NCBI GenBank assembly: GCA_963729715.1
Contig: CAVSPA010000005.1
Coordinates: 320,001 to 384,000, forward strand
Direction of reading: 5' to 3'
DNA length: 64,000 bases
From: an uncultured delta proteobacterium
GTDB lineage: Bacteria > Desulfobacterota > Syntrophia > Syntrophales > UBA2185
Below, piece by piece: positions 37,546 to 41,502 of the stretch (positions are counted from its first letter, which is position 1; every line of letters begins with the position of its first letter). The notes under the pieces were generated by a model that was given only the letters and a program-made list of their open reading frames with translations, had not been told where the DNA came from and did not search any database. A program made the translations under genes and the position numbers.

Positions 37546-37836
37546 TTATGGGCGGTACTCATAGGCTTCGTATTCTGTTTTCTGTCCGAGCAGGGCGTCA
37601 ATCTGATCCTGGATCTTCGCCCTCTCCTTGCTGGACTGCCAGGCCCTCCAGGCGGAAAGACTATCCCATGTGCTGATAACGAGATACTCGTTCTGTCTAT
37701 CCACATTTTTCAGAGATTCCCCGGACACGTAACCCGGCTCTTTCATGCTGAGTGACCTGAGTCGCATCACAAGTTCCTTCAATTGAGCTGCCTTATCCGC
37801 GGCTACCTTTCTTTTAATGAGAATTTTGACTGCCAT
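37546..37836 (-). CDS. Antibiotic biosynthesis monooxygenase (ABM) family protein
   Basis: PGYVSGESL..YLVISTWDSL.AW..W; SD GGAGG. Confidence 0.85.
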   Translation of the reverse strand: MAVKILIKRKVAADKAAQLKELVMRLRSLSMKEPGYVSGESLKNVDRQNEYLVISTWDSLSAWRAWQSSKERAKIQDQIDALLGQKTEYEAYEYRP

Positions 37837-38181: not shown

Positions 38182-38499
38182 TTACTCGATTGGATATCCG
38201 GCATTCTTCCAAGCCACCACACCTCCGCGAAGGACCTTGACATTTCCGTATCCTTTTTTCAGGAAGTGCTCTGCCCGACCGGCAGACGTTTTTTCCCTTG
38301 GTCAGGCTCAATAGAGGATAATTTCCTGGTCTTTTGAATATTGCGGAAGCCGGGAATAGAATTCGCTAAGCGAGATGGATCCTTCAAGATTAACCCTTCT
38401 ATATTCCTCGTCGTCCTTATAGGCGCAGACCAGAATGGCCTCCCCTGATTTTACTTTCAGATAAGCTTCTTCCGGCGATATCCGCATGGCTTCCGTCAC
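38182..38499 (-). CDS. Rhodanese-like selenoprotein, 105 aa, with two in-frame TGA codons (Y-U-A-U-P)
   Basis: Reading through TGA 38310-38308 and 38304-38302 gives EIILYUAUPREKTSAGRAEHFLKKGYGNVKVLRGGVVAWKNAGYPIE*, a complete rhodanese C-terminus; SECIS-like hairpin TCTGCC-GGTCG-GGCAGA follows. Confidence 0.82.
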
Positions 38500-38597: not shown

Positions 38598-40202
38598 TTA
38601 AGTATTGTCGTCATCGAATGGATGGAGATCTACCCAATTTCGGCGTAGGGTGGCGTCATGGCACACTTCTCCCTTCTTCCCTACAAGTTCGCTGTGTTCA
38701 AGCTTTCTGAGAGCCATGTTGTCGGTCCTCACTTCCGCCAGCGTACGCTTACCATCCTTGAGACGACCAATGACTGTGGCCCGCTCCGCTTGTCCGTCTT
38801 GATCGTAGCGAATTATGTACGACTCAATCGTCAGAATACCGTCAGCCCGTTCGACGGGAGCGGGAATGGCCTCCGCGTCGATTGCCTTCTGAACAGCTGA
38901 ATCATCTCGCTCCTCCCATGGATGGCTGGGAGGTTCCGCTCCATAGATGCCGATCGCATGTTTAGAGTTGTACCAGCCGTTGGCCGTCACCATGGCCTTC
39001 AGGTGGCGATCACGACGAATGCGCTCTACTATGGAGGCAATGGCGTGCATCGTATAGTTATTGCCGGGTCCGCCAAACTGGGCAAGCCCACCGGTGACCG
39101 TAAGGTCCCTCGGATCATCTTCCGAAATACCGATGGCCTGACGGGAGATCTCTACAGCCGATGGAAAGCAGCTATAGAGATCAAAGACGTCGATGTCGGA
39201 AAGCGAAAGACCCGACTGCTTGAGAGCAAGCCGTGCCGCTTCTGTTATGGGAGGGGAATCATAGAGCCTGGGCCTCTCTGTCACATGCCAGACATTGTTT
39301 AGTTCCGCTCCTCCCATCGGATATACCCATTTGGAGCGGTCGATACCGAACGCAGTAGCATCAGCGTCATTTGTCATGATAAGCGCTGCCGACTGATCTA
39401 CGTTGATATTGGCCACAATGCGGACTGTATACGGATAGACAACGTAGCGATTTTGCGGGGCAGCTATTGTCAACTCCTCCGCCTTGTATTTTTTCCGAGT
39501 CCAGGCATAGGGATTCCCAAAGGCGACCTGGGAAAAGCTCTCATACCGATGCCCCATATAGAGCCGGTGTTCCCTGATACTCCTGCCCGATCGATAGCGA
39601 AGGGATGTTTCGAAGAAAGGATACATGAACTGCGGCAGAAAGAGATCGTAGGCTTCTTCAATGGAATTGTTGACTTCATGATACCTATCGCCCGCTCTCT
39701 TGAGCATTTCTTCCTCATGTTCGCACCCCAAGCGGAGAAGTGTATCAAAGTTGGCGGGCAGATTCTTTTCCCTTAGATGCCGAAACGTCACATTGTCATG
39801 CCAATCCAGAACTGTCTCGCCCTTGGAGGCCTTGTACATCGAATATATCGCTTCGGCGCCTGTGAGTAATACGGCCCTTCTCCCTCCCGCAGCAATATCT
39901 CGCGCAAGGCGATTTACCATCGTTTGAGGTGAATCGCCTCCGATCTGCGAATAAATCACGTTCTTAGGCCTAATGCCCAACGACCCGCTTACAGCCAGCG
40001 GCAGACGCTCATCGTCCCGGGAAAAGCTGTTGATCACGCAGACCGTGTCAATGATAGATTTTAAGGCATCACATCCGGCGTCTCTCATGGCGTCAAGGCT
40101 CGCCCTGACCATTAGGCCAAGGGGGTCAAGAATGGGATTTGCATCTTTTTGTTGAGTGTGCTGTGCAGCGCCAATGAGAATGGGAACGGGTCTCGTCTTC
40201 AT
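38598..40202 (-). CDS. Thiolase-like protein (acetyl-CoA acetyltransferase-like)
   Basis: PILIGAAQ, GGDSPQ, NVDQSAA, DLYSCFPSAV, TGGL..FGGPGNNY. Confidence 0.85.
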   Translation of the reverse strand: MKTRPVPILIGAAQHTQQKDANPILDPLGLMVRASLDAMRDAGCDALKSIIDTVCVINSFSRDDERLPLAVSGSLGIRPKNVIYSQIGGDSPQTMVNRLARDIAAGGRRAVLLTGAEAIYSMYKASKGETVLDWHDNVTFRHLREKNLPANFDTLLRLGCEHEEEMLKRAGDRYHEVNNSIEEAYDLFLPQFMYPFFETSLRYRSGRSIREHRLYMGHRYESFSQVAFGNPYAWTRKKYKAEELTIAAPQNRYVVYPYTVRIVANINVDQSAALIMTNDADATAFGIDRSKWVYPMGGAELNNVWHVTERPRLYDSPPITEAARLALKQSGLSLSDIDVFDLYSCFPSAVEISRQAIGISEDDPRDLTVTGGLAQFGGPGNNYTMHAIASIVERIRRDRHLKAMVTANGWYNSKHAIGIYGAEPPSHPWEERDDSAVQKAIDAEAIPAPVERADGILTIESYIIRYDQDGQAERATVIGRLKDGKRTLAEVRTDNMALRKLEHSELVGKKGEVCHDATLRRNWVDLHPFDDDNT

Positions 40203-40209
40203 AGTCTGA

Positions 40210-41502
40210 TCATCTGTAGAAATCCCAAGAATACCCTTCCTGATTATCGTATTTTTCGCCCTGCTGTTTGAGATAGCCCCAATAGGCAAGTTCGTCAATG
40301 TGAAGCTCCGCATCCTTCAATGCGTCAATCACGTCTTTGGTGTCCGGGGGGCAGCCGGTCACCTTTATCGCCTTCTTGATATGCGCATTTTCCTTGTTTG
40401 CCTTTATGATACAATTGCCTATGAGAATGGTATTATCATACCCTCTTTGTGCTTGCATTTTTTTGCCGTTGAGGATCTCAACCTTCGGAAGGGGCTGACC
40501 CGTAAATGCCGACAGCACAAGGATATTCACCATGTTGGCAAGAGGGGTGCATCCAGAGCAGAGAGTTTCATCATACTTGCGTAAGGCGACACCTGTCACA
40601 CCGAATTTCTCAAAGATGGAAGGGCCAGTGTTATCTTTCGTCCATCCCCAGTCCCATTTGAACGATTTGATATGATTTTCCAAGGCCTCACCTCTGATAG
40701 CATAATCTCCGAGGTCGAGAGACTTGCCGTCACGTTTGGCATACTCAACGAAATGGACTATGTCCTGCGGGTCGTAACCTATAGTTTTTGCCGCAACTAT
40801 GTCGGCTCCAAGGATATCGCGGGACGCAATTATAATGCCTTTCCTGAATGCGTTTCCGAAGTGAAGAGGGCCTCGCTCCAAGGCGTAGATACCGTCCACA
40901 ATGGTTAATGCCGGCTTTACGCAATCGGCGATGAATGTGAAACAATACTCCAGGCCGGGACTCGCATGATGGCAGATCTTCTTGGAGGAGGTTCTCAGGC
41001 AGCCTTTAAGATTTTTCAGCCCCAGGGATACTTTCGTCTGGGCGTGGGTTTTCAGAACGGGGAAGTTGATAAGAAAGTCGGACTCCACAGCCTCTTTTGC
41101 GATATGGAGAGTAGGTCCTCCCGGGATTTTGAAATTTACGGATTCGCTGGCATTAAAATCTACGAGCTTGACCCCGTACTTTCTTGCCAGTGAGTAGTAG
41201 CCGAGACCTGCGAAGGCCGCCATGGTACCAACACCCTTTTGAACTTGAACCGATCCCTCACCGATGGATATTTCTCTGCATCCGTGATCCTTGAGCATGA
41301 GGACCAGATCTTTGACGAGACGTGTCGTTGTAAACACGCCGAATGGCGCTATCTTGAACTTATCGTCCCATGTAATAAGATTTGGTTTAATTAGTACCCT
41401 GGCATTTCTCTCCAGTTCTTCAAGGCCGCAGCAAAGCTCGACGGCCTCTCTGAGAGAATCGGGACTGCCGGCATATTGAACCAACGATATGAGCGGACTC
41501 AT
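40210..41502 (-). CDS. DUF362-domain protein
   Basis: VLIKPNL, LKTHAQTKVSLGLKNLKG, TIVDGI; C-terminal Cys motifs. Confidence 0.8.
   Translation of the reverse strand: MSPLISLVQYAGSPDSLREAVELCCGLEELERNARVLIKPNLITWDDKFKIAPFGVFTTTRLVKDLVLMLKDHGCREISIGEGSVQVQKGVGTMAAFAGLGYYSLARKYGVKLVDFNASESVNFKIPGGPTLHIAKEAVESDFLINFPVLKTHAQTKVSLGLKNLKGCLRTSSKKICHHASPGLEYCFTFIADCVKPALTIVDGIYALERGPLHFGNAFRKGIIIASRDILGADIVAAKTIGYDPQDIVHFVEYAKRDGKSLDLGDYAIRGEALENHIKSFKWDWGWTKDNTGPSIFEKFGVTGVALRKYDETLCSGCTPLANMVNILVLSAFTGQPLPKVEILNGKKMQAQRGYDNTILIGNCIIKANKENAHIKKAIKVTGCPPDTKDVIDALKDAELHIDELAYWGYLKQQGEKYDNQEGYSWDFYR

What the first reader, a model, noticed from the sequence alone, without database searches (positions are those of the whole stretch)
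38182..38499. Rhodanese-like protein with two selenocysteines in a U-A-U motif
Seen: the ORF track stops at ...EIILY, but TGA-GCC-TGA is followed in frame by 39 residues forming a typical rhodanese C-terminus (GYGNVKVLRGGVVAWKNAGYP). The first TGA occupies the catalytic Cys position. A hairpin TCTGCC-GGTCG-GGCAGA has its loop 21 nt after the second TGA and 27 nt after the first. Known: E. coli fdhF SECIS has a GGUC-containing loop, and C-x-U rhodanese-related selenoproteins exist. Inference: a rare U-x-U protein where one SECIS may serve two UGA codons; a candidate selenium carrier or diselenide redox protein.
Basis: partly seen in the sequence, partly recalled or inferred. Interest (0 to 1): 0.82.

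Follow-up and report, generated by a model that had tools for sequence, protein, structure and literature searches.

The report
Rhodanese protein with two selenocysteines
A small bacterial rhodanese-like gene has two in-frame UGA codons two codons apart that are likely both read as selenocysteine from one RNA hairpin; this double form was noted once in 2007, and here it appears to have arisen many times, almost as freely as a silent mutation.

Summary
Window 38499-38182 (-) reads as a 105-aa rhodanese-fold protein with Y-U64-A-U66, one hairpin 27/21 nt behind the two TGAs, and the genome has selA, selB, selD and tRNA-Sec. The first TGA is no private nonsense change: 24 of 122 family genes are UxU (97 CxU, 0 UxC), the frame behind it is under purifying selection (dN/dS 0.145), and independent contigs read it. 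The UxU rhodanese form is already in print (Zhang & Gladyshev 2007), so the motif is not new. What these data add: (1) UxU needs about 11 changes on the tree and one origin is rejected; (2) Cys-Sec swaps at position 64 run at about 0.8 (0.4-1.4) of the silent transversion rate, while Sec66 is almost never lost (<0.04); (3) UxU genes keep the same single hairpin as CxU genes, and the 27-nt spacing is the one single-Sec HdrA uses in these organisms (22 of 22). Best reading: one SECIS serves both UGAs, and the first Sec is a tolerated passenger rather than an adaptive diselenide. Protein chemistry is untested; neighbours give no clue.

The parts
38182..38499 (-). Gene for a 105-aa single-domain rhodanese-fold (seleno)protein, GTG start, TAA stop; annotation pipelines truncate it at 63 aa
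   Evidence: PF00581 E 1.8e-9; best NCBIfam NF041203, 69.5 bits, below cut-off 115; 46 of 72 database homologs end just before column 64
38308..38310 (-). TGA 1 = predicted Sec64, at the rhodanese active-site Cys position; Cys in 98 of 122 family genes
   Evidence: covered without change by contigs of runs X2 (DNA) and X20 (RNA library)
38302..38304 (-). TGA 2 = predicted Sec66, the family's conserved Sec (CxU); Cys in CxC homologs
   Evidence: TGA in 121 of 122; CxC in 38 of 91 single-domain protein rows
38270..38286 (-). Bacterial SECIS-like hairpin, 6-bp stem, 5-nt loop GGUCG (38280-38276), loop 21 nt after TGA2 and 27 nt after TGA1
   Evidence: stem pairs 17-21/27-31 kept in 19 of 19 UxU and 71-77 of 77 CxU genes; loop G in 96 of 96; CxC controls lack the loop G, 0 of 5
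38425..38427 (-). Cys25 of the L-V-C-A-Y motif, which stands where DVR-type rhodaneses have Asp; marks the sub-branch
   Evidence: invariant in alignment A1; Cys in 84 of 91 single-domain rows; D-V-R in the paralog L043
38506..38511 (-). Shine-Dalgarno-like AGGAGG, 6 nt before the GTG
   Evidence: read directly

Best explanation
The gene has two in-frame UGA codons followed by one conserved hairpin, and is likely translated through both as selenocysteine by SelB bound to that single hairpin, giving a rhodanese-fold protein predicted to move sulfur or selenium atoms with a U-A-U active-site loop. Steps: (shown) both TGAs, the hairpin, the Sec machinery and selection on the downstream frame. (Inferred) SelB-GTP-Sec-tRNA binds the GU loop; the ribosome reaches UGA64 with the loop 27 nt ahead and takes Sec; two codons later it reaches UGA66 with the loop 21 nt ahead, the upper stem still folded, and a second SelB complex delivers the second Sec; release factor 2 would compete at both codons and give 63- and 65-aa by-products. 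(Inferred) Sec66 is the selected residue; because its SECIS also reaches codon 64, a one-base TGY>TGA change makes a second Sec at almost no cost, so UxU keeps arising from CxU and reverting. (Least certain, about 50%) chemistry: residue 64 takes up a sulfane S or Se atom as in rhodaneses, and Sec66 attacks it or closes a selenenylsulfide/diselenide ring with 64, so the protein would act as a small chalcogen shuttle/redox relay, with Cys25 a possible third thiol.
For: Sec machinery in the own genome and in UxU genomes: selB in 20 of 22 distinct genomes checked, selA in the other two. dN/dS behind both TGAs 0.145 in the own 9-gene UxU group, with dS 0.24 in the SECIS zone against 0.79 after it; pN far below pS after the SECIS for all 24 UxU genes against their nearest CxU gene, no TAA/TAG in their aligned parts. 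Same hairpin position and energy in UxU and CxU (p 0.56), no second hairpin shifted by 6 nt. 0 UxC among 122 genes: the first Sec appears only where the SECIS exists. Both spacings fit the 16-37 nt consensus (PMC13188914). Single-Sec HdrA of the own genome and kin has a GGUC-loop hairpin 26-27 nt after its UGA in 22 of 22 Sec forms and 0 of 7 Cys forms. 11 changes on the tree, single origin rejected, p-AU 5e-47. Relative Cys-Sec rate at 64: 0.82 (0.37-1.44), 0.58-0.82 across five subsets/settings; Sec66 loss <0.05; C25 gain <0.17. Fold: pLDDT 93.5, TM 0.80 to GlpE.
Against: No protein-level evidence of Sec at either site. In E. coli fdhF the minimal stem-loop sits 11 nt from the UGA (PMC8659212 passage); here the upper stem starts 15 and 21 nt away, so geometry differs from the best-studied case. 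In naked-RNA folding an alternative helix that pairs the second UGA region with the SECIS loop is the MFE (-20.9 kcal/mol); it competes in 10 of 19 UxU and 40 of 77 CxU genes. The HdrA loop is 4 nt, this one 5 nt. The tree rests on 103 columns, many forks are open, and starred branches force only 4-5 changes; the sample was drawn around a UxU query. The rate test cannot exclude weak selection either way. No conserved neighbour supports any particular chemistry, and the branch lacks the Asp of the DxR motif, so sulfurtransferase activity is not given.
Confidence: 0.75

Rival explanations
1. Both codons are Sec, but the first Sec is adaptive: U64-U66 forms a diselenide (or a better nucleophile) that is selected in some lineages or selenium-rich habitats.
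For: UxU is kept across whole groups: 9 of 10 genes in the own starred clade and a group of 5 with dS about 1.6 upstream; the loss-rate profile allows values as low as about 0.1-0.2 of silent.
Against: Best estimates of gain (0.78) and loss (0.90) are near the silent rate; the TGA share (24 of 122) matches A at four-fold sites (0.18); a CxU gene sits inside the own clade (L055).
Confidence: 0.17
2. UGA66 is Sec but UGA64 is read at low efficiency by near-cognate tRNAs (Trp/Cys) or mostly terminates, so little full-length protein is made.
For: Spacing for UGA64 is longer than in E. coli fdhF; a competing helix exists; two recoding events in three codons are untested in bacteria in the papers I could search.
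Against: Column 64 holds only TGC, TGT and TGA, never TGG, in 122 genes; a strong yield loss should depress the gain rate, which is near silent; HdrA uses the 27-nt spacing.
Confidence: 0.06
3. The first TGA is a nonsense mutation or assembly error and the gene is a pseudogene.
For: TGY>TGA is one base; one UxU orthologue (L020) has a frameshift near the C-terminus.
Against: Shared by 8 other genomes of the own genus/family, read in independent contigs, purifying selection downstream, no TGA at other Cys columns.
Confidence: 0.02
4. Rival for the chemistry only: the protein is not a chalcogen shuttle but binds a soft metal(loid) (As(III), Hg, Cu, Zn) or acts as a thiol-disulfide-type oxidoreductase through C25/U64/U66.
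For: Three conserved thiol/selenol positions; canonical DxR Asp replaced by Cys; scattered stress/redox neighbours such as bacterioferritin, SOD, peroxiredoxin, nitroreductase in single loci (no background rate).
Against: Position 66 is Ser, Asp or Thr in many full-length homologs (13 CxS, 4 CxD, 2 CxT of 91 rows) while 64 stays Cys, as in ordinary rhodaneses; closeness of C25 to 64 was not measured.
Confidence: 0.3

Closest known systems
UxU form of the 'rhodanese-related sulfurtransferase' selenoprotein family, Olavius algarvensis symbiont (Zhang & Gladyshev 2007, PMC1976440; passages read, Fig. 3A not visible)
   Same: Same motif, same family, same inference (second Sec evolved on a CxU background). 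A Y-U-T-U gene over the NF041203 cut-off is present in an Olavius delta-1 genome (L130), probably the kind they saw.
   Different: L130 is of the DVR-type branch; the window's gene is of the LVCAY (Cys25) branch and an independent origin by the tree. The passages seen give one sentence, with no census, SECIS geometry or rate analysis.
[quoted passage not shown]
   Same: Best NCBIfam hit (E 2e-19); C/U-x-U-x-x-E loop; same SECIS position; two paralogs over the cut-off in the own genome.
   Different: 69.5 bits against cut-off 115; no N-terminal extension; Cys25 instead of the DVR Asp; Sec at 64.
Other close double-Sec bacterial proteins: UxxU in Prx-like, NF041115 metal-binding and FmdB-family proteins, UxxxxU in TsoB (table in PMC13188914)
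   Same: Two predicted Sec a few codons apart, which pose the same one-SECIS question.
   Different: Different folds or fusions; spacing of 3-5 codons rather than 2; their SECIS use was not examined here.
E. coli GlpE single-domain sulfurtransferase (PDB 1gmx) and related rhodaneses
   Same: Fold (TM 0.80); residue 64 at the catalytic Cys position (by alignment to 6mxv and BH2092).
   Different: 22% identity; active-site loop two residues longer than in 6mxv; second chalcogen at +2; DxR Asp replaced by Cys.

Membership tests
Rhodanese-like domain (PF00581) | Profile match over gathering threshold | tested here: met
   38.4 bits against 22.2 (U read as C)
Rhodanese-like domain (PF00581) | Rhodanese alpha/beta fold with Cys-equivalent at the start of the active-site loop | tested here: met
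Active sulfurtransferase (GlpE-like) | Persulfide formation and sulfur transfer | not testable with these tools
   needs an enzyme assay
NF041203 rhodanese_LYCAU | HMM score at or above 115 bits | tested here: not met
   69.5 bits, 56.1 in the genome search: a sister branch, not a member
NF041203 rhodanese_LYCAU | [FY]-C-x-U motif with downstream SECIS | tested here: met
   met with U for C at the first position
Bacterial selenoprotein | selA, selB, selC, selD in the genome | tested here: met
Bacterial selenoprotein | In-frame TGA aligned with Cys in homologs, homology on both sides | tested here: met
   position 64: 98 TGY of 122; position 66: CxC in 38 of 91 rows and L213-L217
Bacterial selenoprotein | bSECIS model: 3-9 nt loop, 4-16 bp stem, G in first two loop positions, 16-37 nt spacing, MFE <= -7.5 | tested here: met
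   5-nt loop GG.., 6-bp stem, 21 and 27 nt, -14.6 kcal/mol; bSECISearch itself was not run
Bacterial selenoprotein | Selenium in the protein at both sites | not testable with these tools
   needs 75Se or MS

The most novel reading that the evidence does not exclude
One bacterial SECIS decodes two UGAs two codons apart so efficiently that Cys64-to-Sec is close to a silent change. The family is then a natural, many-times-repeated experiment showing that new Sec residues can be born neutrally within reach of an existing SECIS, with no new RNA element and no selective gain, and that SelB can reload on the same hairpin within two elongation cycles.
Probability: 0.5. Interest if true: 0.62.

Novelty: new member of a known kind. 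Interest (0 to 1): 0.42.

Why it matters
Bacterial SECIS elements are usually treated as one hairpin per UGA at a fixed distance. A 105-aa gene with natural CxC, CxU and UxU versions and one invariant hairpin is a compact test bed for whether, and how well, one SECIS serves two codons, which bears on making multi-Sec proteins in bacteria. The near-silent Cys/Sec exchange offers a measurable case of neutral Sec gain against the usual assumption that each Sec is selected for catalysis. Practically, these genes are truncated to 63-aa hypotheticals in databases (46 of 72 homologs), and the 2026 catalogue lists the family with one Sec.

Tried and rejected
A direct DNA-motif census of all genome contigs was not obtained, so the counts rest on the best 80 of 158 loci plus genome samples, not on the whole collection. 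No ESM Atlas look-alikes were obtained. Gene neighbourhood: clustering of 1496 ORFs from 83 loci and Pfam scan of 121 nearest neighbours showed only synteny among close kin (ABM monooxygenase, SucC, thiolase; QueF/cupin/aldo-keto reductase in another clade); rejected as a guide to function. A second SECIS for the first UGA: not found. The alternative UGA-sequestering helix as a UxU-specific switch: rejected, equally common in CxU. Stronger hairpins in UxU: rejected (p 0.56). A first genome-wide hairpin scan was too noisy, and its 'HdrA-like' candidate at C3:231822 had no family hit. Runs X1 and X3 do not cover the TGAs; only contigs were available, no raw reads, so expression level and strand are not shown. 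Earlier scan findings: none by sequence. Literature: eight full-text searches found UxU with rhodanese only in PMC1976440 and no test of one bacterial SECIS on two UGAs; the library lacks most subscription papers, Haft & Tolstoy 2025 (PMC12013261) was not held, and no supplements were read, so such a test or census may exist.

Full report
Observation. The minus strand of window 38499-38182 reads, with TGA as Sec, a 105-residue protein ending ...EIILY-U-A-U-PREKTSAGRAEHFLKKGYGNVKVLRGGVVAWKNAGYPIE. An AGGAGG lies 6 nt before the GTG. Against shuffles it is only mildly stable (z -1.1 to -2.2). The genome (G000, 19 contigs) has tRNA-Sec, selA, selB and a TGA-containing selD, all over their cut-offs.

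What the protein is. It matches Pfam Rhodanese (38.4 bits) and, best among NCBIfam models, NF041203 rhodanese-related (seleno)protein, but below its cut-off (69.5 against 115). The AlphaFold model (U as C, 12-row alignment) has pLDDT 93.5 and matches GlpE with TM 0.80. U64 aligns with the active-site Cys of solved rhodaneses; the loop is two residues longer than in 6mxv and equal to BH2092. The branch has L-V-C-A-Y where NF041203-type paralogs have D-V-R; Cys25 is present in 84 of 91 single-domain rows among the 150 best representatives, which show CxC 38 times, a C-x end 20 times and CxS 13 times. The closest named records are Syntrophales MAGs; the branch spans Thermodesulfobacteriota, Nitrospirota and some Acidobacteriota.

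Is the first TGA real? Among 101 related genomes, eight others of the own genus or family carry the orthologue with both TGAs at 77-87% identity, one has TGC, one is cut short. In the protein database 46 of 72 homologs end exactly before column 64 and 20 end after C-x. The best 80 of 158 confirmed loci in the genome collection hold 81 genes: 64 CxU, 16 UxU, 1 CxS. The top 30 loci of a 401-genome phylum sample gave 23 CxU, 6 UxU (two from the own genus), 1 CxS. Pooled and de-duplicated (rows without a C/U-x-C/U/S motif or without E/D/Q/G at column 69 left out): 122 genes, 97 CxU, 24 UxU, 1 CxS, no UxC; TGA occurs at columns 64 and 66 only, not at C25 (104 TGY) or column 33 (28 TGY), and column 64 never holds TGG. 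In the own nine-gene UxU group dN/dS is 0.186 before and 0.145 behind the TGAs, with dS 0.24 in the 13 SECIS codons against 0.79 after them; two other UxU groups and three CxU groups behave alike. All 24 UxU genes show pN well below pS behind the SECIS and no TAA/TAG in the aligned part; one (L020) has a late frameshift. Contigs of a DNA run (X2) and an RNA-library run (X20) from related strains cover both codons without a change; two other runs do not cover them. selB was found in 20 of 22 distinct UxU genomes checked, and the two without have selA. A nonsense or error reading is excluded.

One SECIS for two codons. Across 96 TGA-bearing genes the stem pairs at 17-21/27-31 after TGA2 hold in 19 of 19 UxU and 71-77 of 77 CxU genes, with two-sided changes (T-A/C-G, C-G/G-C), and the second loop base is G in 96 of 96; third codon positions 21, 24 and 27 are 93-99% fixed. 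Five CxC genes have 3-4 of 5 pairs and no loop G. UxU genes have no extra or shifted hairpin and the same energy as CxU (p 0.56). Both spacings lie in the 16-37 nt consensus (PMC13188914, passages), though further out than E. coli fdhF (PMC8659212, passage). The own genome offers an internal standard: its single-Sec HdrA has a hairpin with a GGUC loop 27 nt after the UGA, found at 26-27 nt in 22 of 22 Sec forms and 0 of 7 Cys forms among 29 of 30 loci with the motif; a HesB-like gene shows 25 nt and selD 16 nt. So this SelB appears to work at both 21 and 27 nt. Against: in free RNA an alternative helix pairing the UGA66 region with the loop is more stable, but it is as common in CxU genes (40 of 77 against 10 of 19) and would be opened by a ribosome on codon 64 (inference; folding from 10 nt behind either codon restores the loop in 17-18 of 19).

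How UxU arises. With the two trait columns removed, the label needs 7 changes on the 97-gene tree and 11 on the 122-gene tree; starred branches force 5 and 4. On a 45-row subset (21 of 24 UxU rows; L130 and two partial rows left out) a single UxU clade is rejected, p-AU 5e-47. A likelihood model calibrated on 20 four-fold sites puts Cys-Sec exchange at codon 64 at 0.82 of the silent transversion rate (0.37-1.44), 0.58-0.73 without the own clade or within the Cys25 branch; Sec66 loss is under 0.05 and Sec gain at C25 under 0.17. The simplest reading is that Sec66 is selected, and that Cys64, the only Cys within reach of its SECIS, drifts in and out of Sec. Caveats: short alignment, poorly resolved tree, sample centred on a UxU query, and a loss-rate profile that still allows moderate retention.

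Function. Neighbourhoods are not conserved beyond close kin and show no selenium genes. From fold and active-site position I favour a chalcogen shuttle/redox relay: S or Se loaded on residue 64, resolved by Sec66 (about 50%, inference from rhodanese chemistry, recalled). Metal(loid) binding or thiol-oxidoreductase activity through C25/U64/U66 is the main rival; the nearness of C25 to the loop is recalled from the fold and was not measured.

Comparison and novelty. Zhang & Gladyshev 2007 already wrote that in a rhodanese-related family of Olavius symbionts 'a second Sec evolved ... resulting in a UxU motif' (PMC1976440, passages; figure not seen). An Olavius delta-1 genome does hold a Y-U-T-U gene over the NF041203 cut-off, in the DVR branch. 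The 2026 review lists the family as CxU with one Sec and names other close double-Sec proteins. deep-Sep (PMC12013277) has none of the terms searched; the Haft preprint passages do not mention rhodanese; Haft & Tolstoy 2025 could not be read. So the motif is known; this gene is a further, independent instance in a sister branch that NCBIfam does not yet name. The recurrence, the near-silent rate and the HdrA spacing match were not found in the eight searches made. Verdict: real, new member of a known kind, interest 0.42, because it makes the one-SECIS-two-UGA question and neutral Sec gain directly testable.

Noticed in passing
G000:C5:187086 (-), L176: HdrA selenoprotein (DCSI-U) whose SECIS shares the 9-nt core GCCGGUCGG with the rhodanese SECIS, loop 27 nt after the UGA.
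   Followed up: yes
G000:C5:63364-63714, C6:159738-160109, C3:226608-226931: Three further CxU rhodanese paralogs in the own genome, two over the NF041203 cut-off, one fused at the end of a ~320-aa frame; all with the loop at 21 nt.
   Followed up: partly
G000:C7:236860, C4:367988, C5:622715, C7:476851, C18:19166: Other predicted selenoproteins: IscA/HesB (NF038090 over cut-off), an OsmC-like UxxT candidate without family hit, CoA-disulfide reductase-like, UXX-star family 1 (over cut-off), and a CKT-U candidate not scanned.
   Followed up: partly
L101:3001-4400: A CxU and a UxU paralog lie about 1 kb apart in one locus, a natural side-by-side pair.
   Followed up: no
P0134 cluster, P0075, P0007: Database entries with W-x-W or C-x-W at this motif; the P0134 cluster mixes 116-aa W-G-W calls with 63-aa truncated calls, so these are probably UxU/CxU genes called with TGA=Trp.
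   Followed up: partly
window 38270-38296 (+): Read on the plus strand the SECIS hairpin is followed by a T run and scores as an intrinsic terminator; probably a by-product of the Glu-Lys codons.
   Followed up: no
window 38598-40313 and 37546-37836 (-): Upstream thiolase-like gene (PF18313) and downstream ABM-monooxygenase gene before sucCD and a methylmalonyl-CoA/biotin carboxylase cluster; syntenic only within the own genus group.
   Followed up: partly
L020 (G006) and L030 (G009): A UxU orthologue with a frameshift near the C-terminus, and an orthologue cut by TAA before the motif: decayed copies or assembly errors.
   Followed up: no
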